Source: a virus. Taken from it: a DNA stretch of 64,000 nt. A model generated the notes under the pieces. That model searched no databases and had not been told where the DNA came from. It saw only the letters and a list, made by a program, of their open reading frames with translations. Positions 17,766-61,755 of the stretch are shown here, piece after piece. The position numbers were made by a program, and so were the translations under genes. The stretch's first letter is position 1. Every line of letters begins with the position of its first letter. The DNA lies in UHGV virus genome UHGV-0087418, one strand, 5' to 3'.

Positions 17766-18392
17766 TTAACCTCTATTCATAAAAGCATTAAAAATTTGGT
17801 CATCAATAGAAACATCTACTTTAGACTGTTTTTCTGATGGTAATTCATATCCACATATTACAATTTTGTGATCAATATCAAAATACACAGAAGCAATATG
17901 ATTAATGATGTTTTCAGTAAAGTCTAAATCAACATCAATATCTTTTTGACCACAGCCTAAAGGATAAATAATGCGAGTAATTCGATTATCTTTAACAAAG
18001 ATTCCACCGACATACTCTGTGCTGCGTTCAAAGTCTACGCGCCGACGAAATGAAAAATATTCAGGCTCTTTATGAGCTCGGCTCATAGGACACAACGAGT
18101 AACTAGAATAAGAGATGTCAAATCCTACGCCTTCGATATGAGCCAAAGTGTCATGATTAAACCAATTATAATCGTACGCCAAATCCATTAGATTATAATA
18201 TGTAAAAGGCACCGGATTAACATCATTAGTCACAAGCATATAATTAGCAACTGCTATAATTTCATTGTTTTTAACGAATACAAACCGTGATTGATGTGAA
18301 TGACCCGGACCCGCGTTTTCACGATTAATGATATAACACTGGGCACCTTTATATTTGTATGTATCTTTGCACTTGTGCATTTGATAGAGCAT
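17766..18392 (-). CDS. hypothetical protein
   Basis: 208-aa ORF between 61 and sp. Confidence 0.45.
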   Translation of the reverse strand: MLYQMHKCKDTYKYKGAQCYIINRENAGPGHSHQSRFVFVKNNEIIAVANYMLVTNDVNPVPFTYYNLMDLAYDYNWFNHDTLAHIEGVGFDISYSSYSLCPMSRAHKEPEYFSFRRRVDFERSTEYVGGIFVKDNRITRIIYPLGCGQKDIDVDLDFTENIINHIASVYFDIDHKIVICGYELPSEKQSKVDVSIDDQIFNAFMNRG

Positions 18393-52503: not shown

Positions 52504-53490
52504 TTATTTCAGAAGAGTAACCTCAGCGATTTCTTCCCAACCGTTTTTGTCGGTCATAATAAAGTCAGCAAGATAAAGAGCAGTACGCAGTGAAACATTG
52601 CGTAAACGGTTAACATTAACTTTCATCCATGATAATGCTTTATAAGTTTCTTCATCAGAAAGACCACGCTTTTGCATCATGTCAGTTGAAAGAATAACAT
52701 CTTCAACCCTGACCATAATTTCTTCATTAGTATGAACACCCAAATCCAAATAAACTGAGCGGGACACTAATGCTTGTAAATGTGGAGCAAGTTTAGTACC
52801 ACGGTCTAATTCGCGGTCAATGTCAACGTTTGTGATAAAAACAATCGTTCCTTTAAATTCAAACTCACGCTCAATGCCTTTTTCTTCTAAGTAAGAAGAC
52901 GCAGTGCTCCAGCAGACTTTACGGGTCTCTCCAGTGTCCAGAGCGGCTTTTAGAAGATTAAGAATATCCATATCAGAGAAAACATCCACATCATCAATCA
53001 AAAGGACAGAATTCTCTTCACGATTATTCCAAAGCTGCTCATAAAGACCAATACCAGAGATTTTACCATTAATGCTTTTATATTCAATGTATCCAATATC
53101 ATTTGCTTTATTCAAAGCTTTATCTAAAGAATACGTTTTACCAATACCTGCTGCACCAGAGATAATCAATGAACGAATATTTCCATTAATAATACCATTC
53201 GTCATCATTCCCATAACATTAAATCTTTTATTAATGCGGGTTTTCATATCTTCATACGATTCTTTAACTTCTTCAACTTTTACACCATCATATGAAATAT
53301 CTGATTTGTAAACCCAAACACCGCGACGTTTACCGTCAATTTCAACAAAAACTTTACCATCTCCTTGTGCATCTACCGGAGCATTATCTGGGAACCATTC
53401 GCCTAAGAGCTCAAAAGTTCCAGAGATTTCTTTACCGAAGTAGATACCCTTATTGATAGTTACAGTTTTCATTTTATTCTCCAATTTCAC
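52504..53490 (-). CDS. P-loop NTPase (AAA-like ATPase)
   Basis: 328 aa; Walker A ISGAAGIGKT, Walker B VLLIDDVD, sensor-like FITN; N-terminal domain of about 100 aa with unknown fold. Confidence 0.55.
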   Translation of the reverse strand: MKLENKMKTVTINKGIYFGKEISGTFELLGEWFPDNAPVDAQGDGKVFVEIDGKRRGVWVYKSDISYDGVKVEEVKESYEDMKTRINKRFNVMGMMTNGIINGNIRSLIISGAAGIGKTYSLDKALNKANDIGYIEYKSINGKISGIGLYEQLWNNREENSVLLIDDVDVFSDMDILNLLKAALDTGETRKVCWSTASSYLEEKGIEREFEFKGTIVFITNVDIDRELDRGTKLAPHLQALVSRSVYLDLGVHTNEEIMVRVEDVILSTDMMQKRGLSDEETYKALSWMKVNVNRLRNVSLRTALYLADFIMTDKNGWEEIAEVTLLK

Positions 53491-53541
53491 ATTTGTTTTG
53501 ATAGGGTAATAGTATCACACTACTACCCTACTGTAAACAAT

Positions 53542-53805
53542 TTATTTTAGTGTTTGCCAAATTTTTACTGCTTCGCGACGAGATACTTCTACAGCTCCAA
53601 GTTCTACGGCTTTTTGACGTCGGCGAGCATGTAAGTCATAATGTTTAATGCGTTTATCTTGAAACCAAGAACGTTTCATTCCTATTGCTTCTGCCATTTT
53701 ATGAAGCTCTTCAATATCTCCATCAGTGAACATATGACAATTTTTAGTTGGATGGCCGCGAAGTTTCCATCCATGATTCATTAAAACATCTACGTAAACT
53801 GTCAT
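53542..53805 (-). CDS. hypothetical protein (resembles the DUF4031 family from memory)
   Basis: 87 aa, MTVYVDVLMNHGWKLRGHPTKNCHMFTDGDIEELHKMAEAIGMKRSWFQ...; family assignment is recall only. Confidence 0.4.
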   Translation of the reverse strand: MTVYVDVLMNHGWKLRGHPTKNCHMFTDGDIEELHKMAEAIGMKRSWFQDKRIKHYDLHARRRQKAVELGAVEVSRREAVKIWQTLK

Positions 53806-53951
53806 TGATTCTGCTCCAAATATGTTTCTATAATTTTCTGAGCGAGATAAACTGCGTTATCTTCAGTTGCATCTTCTAAGAAATTTTCAAAATAAACTGA
53901 AATTTCTTCTGTGTCAATCAACTTTTTTACTTCAATTAACGTAGTTTTCAT
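53802..53951 (-). CDS. small hypothetical protein (49 aa)
   Basis: True start ATG 53949-53951 (MKTTLIEVKKLIDTEEISVYFENF...); the ORF-track extension translates the promoter/leader cassette. Confidence 0.4.
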   Translation of the reverse strand: MKTTLIEVKKLIDTEEISVYFENFLEDATEDNAVYLAQKIIETYLEQNQ

Positions 53952-55081: not shown

Positions 55082-55539
55082 TCAGCCTTATATTCAATAA
55101 CAGGACACACTTTAGCTTTACGCGCTTTTAAAAATTCGACGATAATAGATTTCTTGGGTTGAATAGGAGGTAAACCTTTATACGCCCTATCAATATTTTC
55201 TACATGTAAAGCATAATCCTTTTTCCATTTATAATCTTTATATTTTTCATGTAGTTGTGCAGGAATAACAAATGAACCAATAATAAGTAAAACAAGCAAA
55301 ATGGCAAGTATAAATGCTGATGGAATAAGAGTCCATAAACTACCAAAAATAAGCCATTTCTGTATGATTTCTGCACAGATAATAGTTAGACCTGCGAGTA
55401 TAGTACATCCGAAAAAAGAAACGAAAAATGTAGGGATAACAATAGACCAAAAATATGCACAAAGTGTCTTAGGTCGTTTCCATTCGTCGTTAAACATTTT
55501 GAATAATTTATAATGCCAAGAGTTTTCATTAATAATCAT
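55078..55539 (-). CDS. membrane protein (3-4 transmembrane segments)
   Basis: 153 aa; ATGA overlap with the nucleotidyltransferase gene. Confidence 0.45.
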   Translation of the reverse strand: MIINENSWHYKLFKMFNDEWKRPKTLCAYFWSIVIPTFFVSFFGCTILAGLTIICAEIIQKWLIFGSLWTLIPSAFILAILLVLLIIGSFVIPAQLHEKYKDYKWKKDYALHVENIDRAYKGLPPIQPKKSIIVEFLKARKAKVCPVIEYKAE

Positions 55540-55541
55540 AA

Positions 55542-56063
55542 TTATCCTTTCATTGAAGGTGTAACAGTTGTTAAATACTTAATCATAGCTTCAGCTTCTA
55601 ATTTTGATAATGAAATTTCTCCATTGTTTTGACGAATAGAAATAAAATCCGGATGACGGTCACCACCAGCTTTTAAAACACACATATAAGTATCAGTTTC
55701 ATCTTCAATATTTGAAATGATTGAAGCAGTTCCACATGAATGTGGTTTTTGATAAATCAATACAGCTTTTCTTCCACCGTTTGACTGTTCATAAACTTTT
55801 AATACATCAAACAAATCACTTCTTTTATCAATAGCTAAGATGTTGTTTTCATCTTCAATGTTAAATCCTTCGGATACTTCATAAAGTGTCACCCATAAAT
55901 CGCCAATATCAATAACAGCGTTCACTTTTCCATGACTTTCAAGAGCATGACAAATTTTCTTGATTTCATCATAACTCATTTTAATAATATCATCTCCTTG
56001 AATAAGAAAGATGTCATTTTTAAATTCAACACGAATTAAACCGCTTTCACTTGAAATAAACAT
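55542..56063 (-). CDS. hypothetical protein, paralogue of the next gene
   Basis: 173 aa; C-terminal LSKLEAEAMIKYLTTVTPSM resembles FTKDEAIALKTYLDSVIPTM of ORF 56070-56636. Confidence 0.45.
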   Translation of the reverse strand: MFISSESGLIRVEFKNDIFLIQGDDIIKMSYDEIKKICHALESHGKVNAVIDIGDLWVTLYEVSEGFNIEDENNILAIDKRSDLFDVLKVYEQSNGGRKAVLIYQKPHSCGTASIISNIEDETDTYMCVLKAGGDRHPDFISIRQNNGEISLSKLEAEAMIKYLTTVTPSMKG

Positions 56064-59185: not shown

Positions 59186-59371
59186 TTAAAGCGTATTCAC
59201 ATAAGCTATTAATTCGTTTTCTTTCTTATCAAACCGATCAGCAAATTCTTCTTGCTGATCGGGAGATAGCGGGCCGTATTCATCATAAAAGGTGTTTGCT
59301 TCTGTATGCTCATCTAGAAGTTCATGGATAAGCTCAAACAATTTATCTTTTTGTTCTTTACTCAGACTCAT
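59186..59371 (-). CDS. hypothetical protein
   Basis: 61-aa acidic ORF. Confidence 0.35.
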   Translation of the reverse strand: MSLSKEQKDKLFELIHELLDEHTEANTFYDEYGPLSPDQQEEFADRFDKKENELIAYVNTL

Positions 59372-59537
59372 ATATTAATTTCCAGGAGTTTTAAAATAAT
59401 TCGCTTTTGCTTAAATATTTCCATAGTTAAATGACCAGTATCTTTTTGACCGATTCCAATGGCAAAACCTTTATTGACAGCGAGTTCAATTAAATTATCA
59501 AGCTCACGTAACACTTCATATTGTAACTCAAAACTAT

Positions 59538-59765
59538 TCATTTCGGTTTACCTTCTTTAACGAAATCGGGATAAGGATAAAATCCTGAATAAAATCCTTC
59601 ACCTTTATGATTGATGCATCCTTTATTAGAACAATAGCACCAATAATCGAAATCACAAGTCATTTCATCATTACATAAAGCAAAAACAACTGGCCATTCA
59701 CACTTTTCGCAGTGGGCATTTTTAAGAATACTTGTTTGGCTCATAACCATGTAACCTTTAAACAA
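59538..59765 (-). CDS. hypothetical Cys-rich protein
   Basis: 75 aa; multiple Cys/His residues. Confidence 0.35.
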   Translation of the reverse strand: MFKGYMVMSQTSILKNAHCEKCEWPVVFALCNDEMTCDFDYWCYCSNKGCINHKGEGFYSGFYPYPDFVKEGKPK

Positions 59766-59953
59766 TATTCTTCTACGTGTTGTTTACGACCTTTCTTATC
59801 AATAAAGGTATATTCAACGAATGTTCCAATATAGTCTTTATCTACACCATGTGGACTATTAATTGGGCATTTAGTACGGCAAATGCGTTCCCATTGACGA
59901 ATAATTTCCACTTTGTTTTTAGGATCAAACGGATGCGGGTAATGTACTTTCAT
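59741..59953 (-). CDS. hypothetical protein
   Basis: 70-aa ORF. Confidence 0.35.
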   Translation of the reverse strand: MKVHYPHPFDPKNKVEIIRQWERICRTKCPINSPHGVDKDYIGTFVEYTFIDKKGRKQHVEEYCLKVTWL

Positions 59954-60404
59954 AATCCACCACTATTAAATCAATATCAGGAGTAAACATGTCGATTAAT
60001 TTAGAAACCTTATCCCAATCGCCGCCAGCAATACCGCAACCTATACGTGGAATGTAAATTACTGGTTTAAACAAAAGGGTTTCTGCCTGTAGATTTAATT
60101 CTATCATGCAGTTTACTAAAGCACCATAATCAAGATTAGGACCCGGTTCGTATTGTGTATACAGGTTATAGCATATACCAAATCCCGTAGGGCTATGTTT
60201 AAAAACAATAGACATATCGCCTAATTTATCACGAGAACCGTACTCGGTAGTGGTTTTATCTATTTCTAAAATTTTGGGATAGGCTCTTGCTAATTGACCC
60301 GCTACGCCAGAGCCCATTGTGTGGAAGCAATTGCACCCGTGCGCAATAATATTACCTTGAAGAAATAGGGCGACAATATCGCCCTTGATATATTTTACAA
60401 TCAT
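59925..60404 (-). CDS. macro-domain protein (ADP-ribose binding/processing)
   Basis: 159 aa; KGDI...NIIAHGCNCFHTMGSGVAGQ and IPRIGCGIAGGDW match macro-domain signature regions. Confidence 0.6.
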   Translation of the reverse strand: MIVKYIKGDIVALFLQGNIIAHGCNCFHTMGSGVAGQLARAYPKILEIDKTTTEYGSRDKLGDMSIVFKHSPTGFGICYNLYTQYEPGPNLDYGALVNCMIELNLQAETLLFKPVIYIPRIGCGIAGGDWDKVSKLIDMFTPDIDLIVVDYESTLPASV

Positions 60405-60748
60405 CTAGTACTCAATCCTCGATTATAAGAATCTACTAAACGGTCAACCATTGAATGACAAGCGGCTTTATCTTTCTCCTCCGCAACTGAACATTCTAAA
60501 GTATTCCACTTTTTAGCATATCGTTTTAACAATGTATCATTTTTGTATCTGCTTGATTTATCTCTTTCTCCGTCTTTATATGCATATATTAATTTCTGCG
60601 CAAATTCAGCTTGGCATGCTTTATTTTTCCCACAATAATCCGCGGCAGTACGGTTTACATACTCTCTAATTTCAGTATATGATGTATCTGCTAACGCAGA
60701 AGCAGAAAATGAAATTAATCCTATACATAAAACCAAAATTTTAGTCAT
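60401..60748 (-). CDS. secreted/periplasmic hypothetical protein
   Basis: 115 aa; signal peptide MTKILVLCIGLISFSASALA; four Cys in the mature part. Confidence 0.45.
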   Translation of the reverse strand: MTKILVLCIGLISFSASALADTSYTEIREYVNRTAADYCGKNKACQAEFAQKLIYAYKDGERDKSSRYKNDTLLKRYAKKWNTLECSVAEEKDKAACHSMVDRLVDSYNRGLSTR

Positions 60749-61286
60749 TTACTATTTCCAAAAGTTTATTATTTTTAAGGTAATTAGCCTTTTCTAGGAC
60801 TTCAGAAGCATATTTAGAACCTGCTTTAACATTCCATCCCGAATTATAAGAGGATATCGCCTTTCTTATATCGCCCTTATGTATATTTAACCAATAAGAA
60901 AGTTCAATGTACGCCCAGGAAGCTGAATTGGACCGTTTATTCAACATTCTTTTTATTTCAGCATCGGTCATATTATAACCAAGTTCCTTAACTCTTGCTC
61001 GCATAGTAGGCAAATAATTTTGGAACATTCCATAGGCATGATGCTTTGGTTTAGATTTTAAATTAACTCCGGCAGAGCTTTCTTGCCATAAAATAGCAGC
61101 CATTATATGACCTAATCCGCTCTTGTGGATATTTTTGTGTGTTTTATATTTTCCATCCTTAGAAAATTGTTCCCCGAATTGATACGCGTAACGCATGTTA
61201 TCGAGTTGGACATTACTGAAAGTATGCTCGGAGCTATGCGCCATCATTGAAATGGCCAATAGACCAGCGAGTAGTGCTTTTCTCAT
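60741..61286 (-). CDS. periplasmic lytic transglycosylase-like protein (SLT domain)
   Basis: 181 aa; signal peptide; SLT motifs WQESS, GMFQ, SYNSGW. Confidence 0.55.
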   Translation of the reverse strand: MRKALLAGLLAISMMAHSSEHTFSNVQLDNMRYAYQFGEQFSKDGKYKTHKNIHKSGLGHIMAAILWQESSAGVNLKSKPKHHAYGMFQNYLPTMRARVKELGYNMTDAEIKRMLNKRSNSASWAYIELSYWLNIHKGDIRKAISSYNSGWNVKAGSKYASEVLEKANYLKNNKLLEIVND

Positions 61287-61293
61287 GCTTACC

Positions 61294-61755
61294 TCATTGA
61301 GTTTTAATTACTGCTTTAGAAGCCTTTCCTGGTAAACGACGACTGTTGATAATTGCCATCCTGCATTGAAGCGACGGGTCTTTGAACTTCGCATTAGGTT
61401 TACAAACTGTAAATCCAAGCCAAAGATTTCCATCTGTGATTTCTAAACGTCCAGGACGGTATTCAACCCCATCAATAAAATCCTCATCAATGTCAGGACG
61501 CGGAGGCATACTCAGGAATTCATTAACTTCTAAAACATGGTCTTTTATTTTGTGGAATAATTCAAAAACATATGTCTCATCAATCTCCCGTTGAATTGCA
61601 CGATCAAGAAGATGCTGAGAATATTTTAGATGAAACGATGAGACCCCTGCTGCTTTTGATGCCTCACGAATCTCATTGTTAATTTGACGAAACTCCGACT
61701 CAAAGTGACGACGAAGCTTATTTCGACGGATAAAAACTTCTGTGTTGATAGTCAT
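61294..61755 (-). CDS. regB: RegB endoribonuclease
   Basis: 153 aa; size and position after tk and the vs-region genes match T4 RegB. Confidence 0.6.
   Translation of the reverse strand: MTINTEVFIRRNKLRRHFESEFRQINNEIREASKAAGVSSFHLKYSQHLLDRAIQREIDETYVFELFHKIKDHVLEVNEFLSMPPRPDIDEDFIDGVEYRPGRLEITDGNLWLGFTVCKPNAKFKDPSLQCRMAIINSRRLPGKASKAVIKTQ

What the first reader, a model, noticed from the sequence alone, without database searches (positions are those of the whole stretch)
59925..60404. Macro-domain protein in the tk-to-regB interval
Clear macro-domain signatures (GDI...HGCNC...GSGVAGQ; IPRIGCGIAGGDW) occur in a 159-aa protein. T-even phages encode ADP-ribosyltransferases (ModA and ModB are present in this window), and macro domains bind or hydrolyse ADP-ribose adducts. 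The protein could reverse or process phage-made ADP-ribosylation, or counteract host ADP-ribosylating defences such as DarT-like toxins.
Basis: partly seen in the sequence, partly recalled or inferred. Interest (0 to 1): 0.45.

Follow-up and report, generated by a model that had tools for sequence, protein, structure and literature searches.

The report
T4 tk.4 macrodomain, anti-DarT2 factor
This is the well-known tk.4 gene of a T4-like phage, a small ADP-ribose-processing (macrodomain) enzyme whose T4 counterpart was recently shown to let the phage escape the bacterial DarTG2 defence, so the finding is real but already described.

Summary
The 159-aa ORF at 59925-60404 (-) is real, and every quoted motif is present. 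The window is a Tequatrovirus (T4-like phage). The ORF is gene tk.4, lying between vs and tk.3.

It is a stand-alone macrodomain: Pfam PF01661 scores above its cut-off, and the AlphaFold2 model has pLDDT 94.5. It belongs to the TARG1/Poa1p/SCO6735/DarG class, not the MacroD/YmdB class.

Two 2025-26 preprints cover this protein family.
- T4 Tk.4 (58% identical, same position) is "AdfM". Its deletion makes T4 sensitive to DarTG2.
- A 39%-identical relative, Adpp of Vibrio phage Gary, is an ADP-ribose-1''-phosphate phosphatase that works with the NARP1 NAD+ rebuilding pathway.

The window protein has an invariant Gln84 where DarG and TARG1 have their catalytic Lys. SCO6735, a proven thymidine-ADP-ribose DNA hydrolase, has Gln at the same position. 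The window protein shares all family-invariant residues with Adpp. I found no NARP1 genes in the window.

Best reading: an AdfM orthologue that removes DarT2-made ADP-ribose from phage DNA. This biochemistry is untested for this protein or for T4 Tk.4. Reversal of the phage's own Arg-linked ADP-ribosylation is unlikely.

One further point: tk.4 is a sharply bounded divergent allele (57% aa identity to T4) between 91-99% identical neighbours.

Novelty: already known.

The parts
59925..60404 (-). tk.4 coding sequence: 159-aa stand-alone macrodomain protein, the AdfM orthologue
   Evidence: ORF. Pfam Macro above its gathering score. PHROG 335. Annotated as tk.4 in LR746311 and NC_000866 at the same position. 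58% identity to T4 Tk.4 over the full length, E 1e-70. AF2 pLDDT 94.5.
60327..60341 (-). H22-G-C-N25-C motif at the floor of the distal-ribose pocket. H22 corresponds to Poa1p H23, Adpp H24 and SCO6735 H24. N25 corresponds to DarG N22, PhiKZ AdfM N23 and SCO6735 N27.
   Evidence: Translation. H22, G23, N25 and C26 are invariant in 85 homologues. Equivalences come from profile and MAFFT alignments. Mutant data come from the literature: Adpp H24A, PhiKZ N23A, SCO6735 H24/N27.
60294..60314 (-). G31-S-G33-V-A35-G-Q: loop 1, the GxG phosphate-binding loop of the macro fold
   Evidence: Translation. G33 and A35 are invariant and M30 nearly so. Position 32 is Ser here, where SCO6735 and DarG have Lys.
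60153..60167 (-). N80-L-Y82-T83-Q84: invariant Gln84 at the position of the catalytic Lys of TARG1 (K84) and DarG (K80), equivalent to SCO6735 Gln85
   Evidence: N80, Y82 and Q84 are invariant in 85 homologues. The profile alignment to TARG1 places Q on K84. hmmalign and MAFFT place it on the DarG 'FPTK' Lys and on the SCO6735/BT1257 Gln. SCO6735 Q85A is inactive (PMC9411070).
60015..60053 (-). I118-PRIGCGIAGGDW-130: loop 2, the diphosphate-binding loop. A126 sits where TARG1 has the catalytic Asp125.
   Evidence: Translation. P119, G122, G124 and W130 are invariant; A126, G127 and G128 are at least 90% conserved. Alignment to TARG1. The T4 allele differs here (IGAGIGKGNW).
60401..60404 (-). 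ATGA overlap of the vs stop codon and the tk.4 start codon, implying co-transcription and probable translational coupling with vs
   Evidence: Sequence AGTACTAGATGATTGTAA on the minus strand. The ORF coordinates of vs (60401-60748) and tk.4 overlap.
59925..59953 (-). 29-nt overlap of the tk.4 3' end with the start of tk.3. The last 9 codons (YESTLPASV) are read from tk.3 sequence in another frame, because 13 nt present in T4 are missing here.
   Evidence: DNA alignment with T4, junction sequence, and low model confidence in the tail (pLDDT below 50 for residues 157-159).
59931..60366 (-). Divergent allelic cassette: the body of tk.4 is only 37-70% nt identical to T4 in 30-nt windows, whereas the flanking genes are mostly 93-100% identical
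   Evidence: Pairwise DNA alignment and sliding identity. Amino-acid identity to T4: tk 99.0, tk.3 91.4, tk.4 56.6, vs 99.1, vs.1 99.4, regB 99.3%.

Best explanation
The ORF is gene tk.4 of a T4-like (Tequatrovirus) phage. It encodes a single-domain macrodomain enzyme of the TARG1/Poa1p/SCO6735/DarG ('ALC1-like') class. It is the positional orthologue of T4 Tk.4, recently named AdfM (anti-DarT factor, macrodomain).

Proposed mechanism:
- The gene lies in a run of same-strand, overlapping genes (regB to tk) in what is the early region of the T4 map, so it is presumably made early in infection.
- The host DarT2 toxin of a DarTG2 system ADP-ribosylates thymidines in TNTC motifs of single-stranded phage DNA and blocks replication.
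- Tk.4 binds the ADP-ribose through its two glycine-rich loops and hydrolyses the bond at C1'' of the distal ribose. This releases ADP-ribose and restores thymidine.
- It acts as an orphan antitoxin without the DarT-binding domain of DarG.
- The catalytic centre is the Gln type (H22, N25, Q84) seen in SCO6735. It is not the Lys type of DarG and TARG1.

Shown here: the gene, the fold, the class, the residue equivalences and the synteny with T4.
Shown by others for the T4 allele only: the requirement for DarTG2 resistance.
Inferred: that this 58%-identical allele does the same, and that it works by hydrolysing ADP-ribosylated DNA.
For: Identity and synteny:
- The region is 99% identical to many Tequatrovirus genomes.
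- The ORF is annotated tk.4 between tk.3 and vs.
- It is 58% identical to T4 Tk.4 over the full length, E 1e-70.

Fold and class:
- Pfam Macro above cut-off; AF2 pLDDT 94.5.
- Foldseek top hits are TARG1, BT1257, Poa1p, TaqDarG, SCO6735 and MtbDarG, with TM 0.69-0.75.
- Profile against PDB: BT1257 2e-19, TARG1 3e-16, SCO6735 7e-16, Poa1p 4e-15, MtbDarG 4e-12.

Active site:
- H22, N25, N80, Y82, Q84, G122, G124 and W130 are invariant in 85 homologues.
- Q84 aligns with SCO6735 Gln85.
- SCO6735 cleaves thymidine-linked ADP-ribose on ssDNA and rescues DarT toxicity. Its Q85A mutant is dead (PMC9411070).

Genetics on the orthologue:
- T4 tk.4 was the only hit on a DarTG2 host, and its deletion sensitised T4 (bioRxiv 10.1101/2025.11.20.689424).
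- T2 and T4 lacking adfN (and T4 also lacking adfA) remain DarTG2-resistant, which predicted a further factor (PMC11825919). T2 carries the identical T4 allele.

Precedent and context:
- A phage macrodomain does remove DarT2-made ADP-ribose from DNA (PhiKZ gp104; PMC13309987).
- Tk.4 protein is detected in T2-infected cells.
- About 2790 phage records carry a family member, but only about 15% of 859 NARP1 operons have a macro neighbour. So most members act outside NARP1.
Against: - No biochemical assay exists for any T-even Tk.4. The preprint only infers hydrolysis.
- The allele in this window is 57-58% identical to the tested one and differs in the diphosphate loop (GCGIAGGDW versus GAGIGKGNW).
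- The closest biochemically characterised relative is not a DNA hydrolase. It is Adpp of Vibrio phage Gary, an ADP-ribose-1''-phosphate phosphatase, at 39% identity and E 1e-26. The window protein matches it at nearly all family-invariant or nearly invariant positions examined.
- In a rough NJ tree, NARP1-associated macro proteins branch within or next to the Tk.4 family, while SCO6735 and DarG lie outside it.
- The Lys of SCO6735 that positions DNA (K34) is Ser32 here.
- The protein is acidic (pI 5.0) whereas SCO6735, TaqDarG and TARG1 are basic. PhiKZ AdfM, which is active on DNA, is also acidic (pI 5.05).
- The PADLOC DarG model scores the window protein (27.5 bits) lower than Adpp (44.6 bits).
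Confidence: 0.6

Rival explanations
1. Its physiological substrate is the small molecule ADP-ribose-1''-phosphate. Like Adpp and yeast Poa1p, it would dephosphorylate ADPR-1''P. That compound is made, for example, by RES-domain (aRES-type) NAD+ phosphorolysis or by 2'-phosphotransferase RNA repair. Under this reading the DarTG2 phenotype of T4 is secondary or specific to the T4 allele.
For: - 39% identity and E 1e-26 to Vibrio phage Gary Adpp, which converts ADPR-1P to ADPR in vitro and whose H24A mutant loses function.
- Identical residues at nearly all family-invariant or nearly invariant positions examined, including H22, C24, N25, C26, F27, D49, N80, Y82, Q84, Y85, A126-D129 and W130.
- NARP1-associated macro proteins interleave with Tk.4 homologues in the tree.
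- PHROG 335 and GenBank records label the family 'phosphatase', 'A1pp phosphatase motif' or 'Poa1p-like'.
- Poa1p is among the best PDB matches.
Against: - Adpp is only useful together with Adps and Namat (NARP1). tblastn finds no Adps, Namat or Nampt in this 64-kb window.
- A spread listing of 1528 Adps-containing phage records showed Felixouna-, Pakpuna-, ViI-like, ICP1-like and other phages, but no ~168-kb Tequatrovirus.
- The T4 RNA repair pathway (Pnkp plus Rnl1) leaves no 2'-phosphate, so no ADPR-1''P is expected from it (established knowledge).
- T4 tk.4 has a direct DarTG2 phenotype.
- The two activities are not mutually exclusive, since both replace a leaving group at C1''.
Confidence: 0.2
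2. It protects against DarT2 without catalysis, either by binding and inhibiting DarT2 directly or by binding ADP-ribosylated DNA.
For: Catalytically dead SCO6735 Q85A, DarG K80A and TARG1 K84A all inhibit DarT in vitro by interaction, and SCO6735 does so most strongly (PMC9411070). No catalytic mutant of T4 Tk.4 has been reported.
Against: The active-site residues are invariant across 85 homologues at 38-80% identity, which argues for retained catalysis. The protein lacks the C-terminal DarT-binding domain of DarG: it matches only positions 3-144 of the 329-position model. Stoichiometric inhibition would have to match toxin variants, yet family members occur in phages of many hosts.
Confidence: 0.1
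3. It erases or trims ADP-ribosylation or RNAylation made by the phage's own Alt, ModA and ModB enzymes.
For: ModA/ModB homologues are present in the same window. Macrodomains in general are ADP-ribose erasers (PMC9503650).
Against: Alt, ModA and ModB modify arginine. By established knowledge, Arg-ADP-ribose N-glycosidic bonds are removed by ARH1-type hydrolases, and macrodomains of the TARG1/MacroD classes act on ester-linked, 1''-phosphate or thymidine-linked substrates. In T4 the only reported tk.4 hit was on the DarTG2 host. tk.4 is about 47 kb from modA/modB and is not co-organised with them.
Confidence: 0.05
4. It degrades ADP-ribose-derived immune signals, such as Thoeris gcADPR or His-ADPR, or other ADP-ribose conjugates on RNA.
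For: Macro domains bind such signals in Thoeris type II effectors. Aravind and colleagues proposed that viral Macro and NADAR domains may target soluble ADPr derivatives (PMC9503650).
Against: I found no experimental link for this family. T4 is robustly restricted by the mRNA ADP-ribosyltransferase system CmdTAC despite carrying tk.4 (PMC11618068), so it does not effectively reverse that RNA modification.
Confidence: 0.05

Closest known systems
T4 Tk.4 = AdfM (NP_049723; bioRxiv 10.1101/2025.11.20.689424)
   Same: Same genome position (between vs and tk.3), same strand, same start-codon overlap with vs. Alignable over the full length at 58% identity, E 1e-70. Same invariant H22, N25, N80, Y82 and Q84.
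   Different: 42% of residues differ while neighbouring genes are 91-99% identical. The diphosphate loop is GCGIAGGDW here and GAGIGKGNW in T4. The window protein has a 4-residue longer tail that overlaps tk.3. Only the T4 allele, which is identical in T2, has been tested, and only genetically.
Adpp, the NARP1-associated ADP-ribose-1''-phosphate phosphatase of Vibrio phage Gary (KNV71_gp137; bioRxiv 10.64898/2026.01.28.702374)
   Same: Same protein family: 39% identity, E 1e-26, with matching residues at nearly all invariant or nearly invariant positions examined, including the His that is mutated in the inactive H24A variant. Also a stand-alone protein of about 158 aa.
   Different: Adpp sits between Adps and Namat and works with them to rebuild NAD+. 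No such genes are in this window, nor apparently in Tequatroviruses. Position 83 is Gly in Adpp and Thr here. Position 32 is Arg in Adpp and Ser here.
SCO6735 (Streptomyces coelicolor) and BT1257: Gln-type ALC1-like macrodomains (PDB 5E3B, 2FG1)
   Same: Best PDB sequence matches. Gln at the catalytic position, and His and Asn in the HxCN motif. SCO6735 hydrolyses thymidine-linked ADP-ribose on ssDNA and counters DarT.
   Different: Only 25% identity. SCO6735 is basic (pI 9.5) with DNA-positioning K34 and K89, whereas the window protein is acidic (pI 5.0) with Ser32. SCO6735 is a cellular, DNA-damage-regulated gene.
DarG antitoxin of DarTG2 (PDB 5M31, 5M3I) and PhiKZ gp104 'AdfM' (PMC13309987)
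   Same: Same fold class (TM 0.73-0.75). Same conserved Asn (N25, equivalent to DarG N22 and PhiKZ N23). Same biological target in the working model.
   Different: The catalytic Lys (FPTK) is replaced by Gln (YTQ). There is no C-terminal DarT-binding domain and no adjacent darT. The NCBIfam DarG model scores 27.7 bits against a cut-off of 250. PADLOC DarG scores 27.5 bits here against 132.9 for PhiKZ gp104. BLASTP of the window protein against PhiKZ gp104 is barely significant (E 0.001). The two proteins called 'AdfM' belong to different macrodomain clades.
Human TARG1 (OARD1/C6orf130; PDB 4J5R)
   Same: Top Foldseek hit (E 1.6e-9, TM 0.72-0.75). TARG1 also cleaves thymidine-linked ADP-ribose (PMC12879935).
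   Different: The TARG1 catalytic dyad K84/D125 is Q84/A126 here. Identity is about 20%.

Membership tests
Macro domain (Pfam PF01661) | Score above the curated gathering threshold over nearly the whole model | tested here: met
   32 bits against a cut-off of 22, E 1.3e-7, profile positions 2-117 of 118.
Macro domain (Pfam PF01661) | Three-layer alpha/beta/alpha macro fold with two Gly-rich ADP-ribose-binding loops | tested here: met
   AF2 pLDDT 94.5 and pTM 0.89. 159 PDB matches at E<=0.001; all 50 listed are macrodomains or macrodomain-scaffold designs. The GSG and GCGIAGG loops are present.
T4 Tk.4 / AdfM orthologous group | Conserved position between vs and tk.3 in a Tevenvirinae genome | tested here: met
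   Annotation of LR746311 and NC_000866, and DNA alignment with near-identical flanks.
T4 Tk.4 / AdfM orthologous group | Full-length sequence similarity to T4 Tk.4 | tested here: met
   58% identity over 155 aa without gaps, E 1e-70. The two are sister groups in the NJ tree.
T4 Tk.4 / AdfM orthologous group | Required for plating on DarTG2-expressing hosts | not testable with these tools
   Shown only for the T4 allele, by transposon screen and clean deletion.
DarG (DarTG2 antitoxin) | Catalytic lysine in the FPTK motif (TaqDarG K80) | tested here: not met
   Gln84 occupies this position and is invariant in 85 homologues.
DarG (DarTG2 antitoxin) | C-terminal DarT-binding domain and a score above the family cut-off | tested here: not met
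   The protein is 159 aa and matches only positions 3-144 of the 329-position PADLOC model (27.5 bits). NCBIfam NF048014 scores 27.7 bits against a cut-off of 250.
DarG (DarTG2 antitoxin) | Encoded next to a darT toxin gene | tested here: not met
   The neighbours are vs and tk.3.
TARG1-type hydrolase | Lys84/Asp125 catalytic dyad | tested here: not met
   The profile alignment places Q84 on K84 and A126 on D125.
SCO6735/BT1257 Gln-type ALC1-like macrodomain | Gln at the catalytic position, plus the His and Asn of the HxCN motif | tested here: met
   H22/H24, N25/N27 and Q84/Q85 align. Their functional importance in SCO6735 comes from PMC9411070.
SCO6735/BT1257 Gln-type ALC1-like macrodomain | Basic DNA-positioning residues (K34, K89) and an electropositive cleft | tested here: not met
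   Position 32 is Ser. The overall pI is 5.0 against 9.5 for SCO6735. The cleft electrostatics of the model were not computed.
Adpp (NARP1-AP ADPR-1''-phosphate phosphatase) | Poa1p-like macrodomain with the catalytic His (Adpp H24) | tested here: met
   39% identity, E 1e-26. H22 aligns with H24, and nearly all invariant or nearly invariant positions examined are shared.
Adpp (NARP1-AP ADPR-1''-phosphate phosphatase) | Encoded within two genes of Adps and Namat (the NARP1 operon) | tested here: not met
   tblastn of Gary and SPbetaL1 Adps, Gary Namat and KVP40 Nampt against the window gave nothing better than E 0.37. The neighbours are vs and tk.3.
   YmdB structures rank about 30th by Foldseek, at E 2.6e-6 and TM about 0.64. 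NCBIfam NF001661 scores 15.7 bits against a cut-off of 291.

The most novel reading that the evidence does not exclude
T4-type AdfM and NARP1-type Adpp may be one enzyme family with one active site that cleaves any leaving group at C1'' of ADP-ribose, whether thymine N3 on DNA or 1''-phosphate on the free nucleotide. If so, a single small phage protein type would counter two unrelated defences: DarTG2 DNA ADP-ribosylation and RES-type NAD+ phosphorolysis. The sharply bounded, 57%-identical tk.4 alleles circulating among otherwise near-identical T-even genomes would then reflect arms-race-driven differences in specificity, or escape from a host factor that recognises Tk.4.
Probability: 0.25. 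Interest if true: 0.5.

Novelty: already known. Interest (0 to 1): 0.2.

Why it matters
On its own this is a routine re-identification. The gene is tk.4 of T4-like phages. GenBank has annotated it as an A1pp/macro 'phosphatase' for years, and a 2025 preprint assigned it an anti-DarTG2 role.

Three modest points remain.
- The allele in this window is the most common one in sequenced T-even phages: about 313 records at 90% identity or more, against 224 for the T4/T2 allele. It has not been tested.
- The enzymatic activity behind DarTG2 resistance is unproven for any T-even Tk.4. The closest characterised enzyme is a phosphatase, not a DNA glycohydrolase.
- The name AdfM is now attached to two distantly related macrodomain clades with different catalytic residues (Lys versus Gln). 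Annotators should keep them apart.

Tried and rejected
- I considered filing it as a DarG homologue and rejected this. The catalytic Lys, the C-terminal domain and a darT neighbour are all absent, and the family-model scores are far below cut-off.
- I looked for NARP1 partners (Adps, Namat, Nampt) in the window to test the Adpp reading and found none. A phage-wide Adps search showed no Tequatrovirus in a spread listing of 40 of 1528 records. That is suggestive but not exhaustive.
- I tried to separate Adpp from Tk.4 by signature residues. All invariant positions are shared, and the variable positions 32 and 83 show no clean pattern. Sequence alone therefore cannot assign the substrate.
- Net charge and pI as a proxy for DNA binding were uninformative, because DNA-active PhiKZ AdfM is as acidic as Tk.4.
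I repeated it without that row.
- I read the CmdTAC and Thoeris papers for a possible link, but they did not bear on this protein.
- The NJ tree is a rough distance tree without support values. I use it only to show that the Adpp and Tk.4 sequences interleave.
Full report
**Observation.** Translation confirms every quoted motif:
- GDI at residues 8-10
- HGCNC at 22-26
- GSGVAGQ at 31-37
- IPRIGCGIAGGDW at 118-130

It is a real gene and not a chance ORF. Pfam Macro (PF01661) scores 32 bits against a gathering score of 22, over 116 of 118 model positions. PHROG 335 matches at E 1e-71. tblastn finds relatives in 2790 phage records. An AlphaFold2 model built on 85 homologues has mean pLDDT 94.5 and pTM 0.89. 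Only the last three residues fall below 50.

**What and where it is.** The 2.8 kb around the ORF is 99% identical to many Tequatrovirus genomes that infect Escherichia, Shigella and Yersinia. In annotated records the ORF is gene tk.4, in the order tk, small ORFs, tk.3, tk.4, vs, vs.1, regB, all on one strand. The tk.4 start codon overlaps the vs stop codon (ATGA). Its 3' end overlaps the start of tk.3 by 29 nt. So it sits in a tightly packed, co-transcribed block. The strongest promoter-like site on this strand in the scanned region lies upstream of regB at 61811-61783.

**Which kind of macrodomain.** Sequence searches against the PDB give, in order:
- the Bacteroides protein BT1257
- yeast Poa1p (ADP-ribose-1''-phosphate phosphatase)
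- Streptomyces SCO6735
- M. tuberculosis DarG
- human TARG1

A profile of 85 homologues sharpens this: BT1257 2e-19, TARG1 3e-16, SCO6735 7e-16, Poa1p 4e-15, MtbDarG 4e-12, TaqDarG 2e-10. Foldseek with the model gives the same set at TM 0.69-0.75. YmdB appears only around rank 30. The protein therefore belongs to the TARG1/Poa1p/SCO6735/DarG ('ALC1-like') class. NCBIfam confirms this: the YmdB-type model scores 15.7 bits against a cut-off of 291.

**Active site.** In 85 homologues at 38-80% identity, the invariant residues are H22, G23, N25, C26, G33, A35, D49, N80, Y82, Q84, P119, G122, G124 and W130. Profile and MAFFT alignments give these equivalences:
- Q84 falls on the catalytic Lys of TARG1 (K84) and DarG (K80, motif FPTK).
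- A126 falls on TARG1 Asp125.

So the catalytic residues of TARG1 and DarG are not conserved. The same position is Gln in BT1257 and in SCO6735 (Gln85). For SCO6735 it has been shown that the enzyme cleaves thymidine-linked ADP-ribose from ssDNA, that it rescues DarT toxicity, and that Q85A or Q85E abolishes activity. H24, N27, K34 and K89 were also probed (PMC9411070). The window protein has the equivalents H22, N25 and Q84, but Ser32 in place of K34. The invariant Gln is thus a feature of an active subclass and not a sign of decay.

**What is already published on this family.**

(i) T4 tk.4.
- In a transposon-sequencing screen of T4 on an E. coli host expressing DarTG2, tk.4 was the single significant hit.
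- A clean deletion sensitised T4.
- The authors named the gene adfM. From structural similarity to DarG, they inferred that it removes ADP-ribose from DNA (bioRxiv 10.1101/2025.11.20.689424).
- Earlier work had shown that T2 and T4 stay DarTG2-resistant without AdfN (T4 also without AdfA) and predicted a further factor (PMC11825919).
- T4 Tk.4 is 155 aa and 58% identical to the window protein over its full length, without gaps. T2 carries the identical T4 allele. Tk.4 protein is detected in T2-infected cells.

(ii) PhiKZ gp104.
- An unrelated group gave the same name, AdfM, to PhiKZ gp104.
- That protein removes DarT2-made ADP-ribose from a TNTC oligonucleotide in vitro, and an N23A mutant is impaired (PMC13309987).
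- It is a true DarG-type macrodomain: E 9e-25 to MtbDarG, with FPTK present, and 132.9 bits on the PADLOC DarG model.
- It is barely alignable with Tk.4 (BLASTP E 0.001).

(iii) Adpp.
- A third preprint shows that macro proteins encoded inside phage NARP1 operons are Poa1p-like ADP-ribose-1''-phosphate phosphatases.
- They let NARP1 rebuild NAD+ after cleavage by RES-domain defence proteins.
- Purified Adpp from Vibrio phage Gary converts ADPR-1P to ADPR, and an H24A mutant was constructed; mutations in Adpp abolish the anti-defence effect (bioRxiv 10.64898/2026.01.28.702374).

**How the window protein relates to Adpp.** Using the sequences in that preprint's supplement, the window protein is 39% identical to Gary Adpp (E 1e-26). 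By comparison it is 25% identical to SCO6735. It matches Adpp at nearly every family-invariant or nearly invariant position examined. In a rough neighbour-joining tree, the NARP1-associated macro proteins branch next to the Tk.4 homologues, and in one case inside them. SCO6735/BT1257, TARG1 and DarG lie progressively further out. The PADLOC DarG model scores Adpp (44.6 bits) higher than T4 Tk.4 (36.0) or the window protein (27.5). Similarity to DarG therefore cannot tell the two proposed activities apart. In short, 'T4 AdfM' and 'Adpp' are members of one family. That family has one genetic assignment (anti-DarTG2) and one biochemical assignment (1''-phosphatase).

**Weighing the two.** Adpp is only useful together with Adps and Namat.
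- tblastn with Gary and SPbetaL1 Adps, Gary Namat and KVP40 Nampt finds nothing in the window (best E 0.37).
- A spread sample of the 1528 phage records with an Adps-like gene shows Felixouna-, Pakpuna-, ViI-like, ICP1-like and other phages, but no Tequatrovirus.
- The T4 RNA repair pathway does not generate ADPR-1''P (established knowledge).
- Family members occur in about 2790 phage records, yet only about 15% of 859 NARP1 operons have an adjacent macro gene. Most members must therefore act outside NARP1.

Together with the direct T4 phenotype, this favours the anti-DarT2 role for the T-even proteins. Both reactions replace a leaving group at C1'' of the distal ribose, so a dual-substrate enzyme is chemically plausible. 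That last point is my inference. I put about 0.6 on 'AdfM orthologue acting by hydrolysis of thymidine-linked ADP-ribose'. I put about 0.2 on the phosphatase activity being the main physiological role. The rest goes to non-catalytic DarT2 inhibition (dead SCO6735, DarG and TARG1 mutants still inhibit DarT in vitro), reversal of phage-made modifications, and signal degradation.

Reversal of Alt/ModA/ModB modification is unlikely. Those enzymes make Arg-linked ADP-ribose, which macrodomains of this class are not known to cleave (established knowledge). The only reported tk.4 hit in T4 was on the DarTG2 host. The genes are not co-organised.

**An allelic cassette.** Against T4, the neighbouring proteins are 99.0% (Tk), 91.4% (Tk.3), 99.1% (Vs), 99.4% (Vs.1) and 99.3% (RegB) identical. 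Tk.4 is 56.6% identical. In the DNA alignment, identity is 97-100% through vs and the first ~38 nt of tk.4. It drops to 37-70% across the body of tk.4 and returns to 93-100% in tk.3.

The window allele lacks 13 nt that T4 has just before the tk.3 start. As a result its last nine codons are read from tk.3 sequence in another frame, and that tail is modelled with low confidence.

Allele counts in the phage collection are:
- the window-type allele at 90% identity or more: 313 records
- the T4/T2-type at 90% or more: 224 records
- a third group, 80-90% identical to T4: 159 records

The window allele keeps the family-consensus diphosphate loop (GCGIAGGDW). The T4 allele is the unusual one (GAGIGKGNW). 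This pattern indicates recombinational exchange of tk.4 alleles among T-even phages. Whether it reflects selection by different DarT2 variants is open.

**Novelty and verdict.** The gene, its domain and a defence-related function are already in the literature and in GenBank annotation: 'phosphatase; contains A1pp phosphatase motif', 'Poa1p-like', 'macro domain protein'. What remains open is the enzymology, the meaning of the allelic diversity, and the relation between the AdfM and Adpp assignments. I rate it as already known, with low interest (0.2). A 0.25-probability reading, one enzyme family countering two defences, would be of moderate interest.

Noticed in passing
window 59931-60366 (tk.4 body) versus flanks 59741-59924 and 60405-61755: tk.4 is a sharply bounded divergent allele. 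It is 56.6% aa identical to T4, while Tk, Tk.3, Vs, Vs.1 and RegB are 91-99% identical. At least three allele groups circulate in T-even phages: 313, 224 and 159 records.
   Followed up: partly
window 59925-59953: Relative to T4, 13 nt are missing just before the tk.3 start. The tk.4 reading frame therefore runs 29 nt into tk.3 in another frame. This adds a poorly modelled tail, YESTLPASV.
   Followed up: yes
window 60367-60385 (-): An 8-bp GC-rich hairpin (AGGGCGAUAUUGUCGCCCU, about -13 kcal/mol, z -2.2) followed by a U-rich stretch lies inside codons 7-13 of tk.4. It is conserved in T4 and sits exactly at the 5' edge of the divergent cassette. It could be an attenuator, an RNA-processing site or a recombination landmark, or it could be coincidence.
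   Followed up: partly
window 17769-18392 (-): A homologue of T4 gp61.2 (AdfA, another anti-DarT factor family) is present, 96% identical to T4. The window therefore carries two members of the T-even anti-DarT repertoire. adfN (gene 30.3) lies outside the window.
   Followed up: partly
   Followed up: yes
window 59186-59765 (-): Between tk and tk.3 the window carries small ORFs (61, 57 and 75 aa; PHROGs 653, 3452 and 2306, function unknown) that differ from T4 tk.1/tk.2. Only 59195-59372 matches T4, at 68% nt identity, and 59373-59739 has no T4 match. This is another mosaic spot next to tk.4.
   Followed up: no
literature: PhiKZ gp104 versus T4 Tk.4: The name AdfM has been given independently to two distantly related macrodomain clades. 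One is a Lys-type DarG-like protein of chimalliviruses. The other is the Gln-type Poa1p/Adpp-like Tk.4 of T4. The T4-type family also contains the NARP1-associated phosphatase Adpp.
   Followed up: yes
window 53484-53943 and 55082-56045: These stretches have no blastn match to the corresponding T4 segment (the nrdC.11-mobD region). This suggests presence/absence differences of mobile or accessory genes relative to T4.
   Followed up: no
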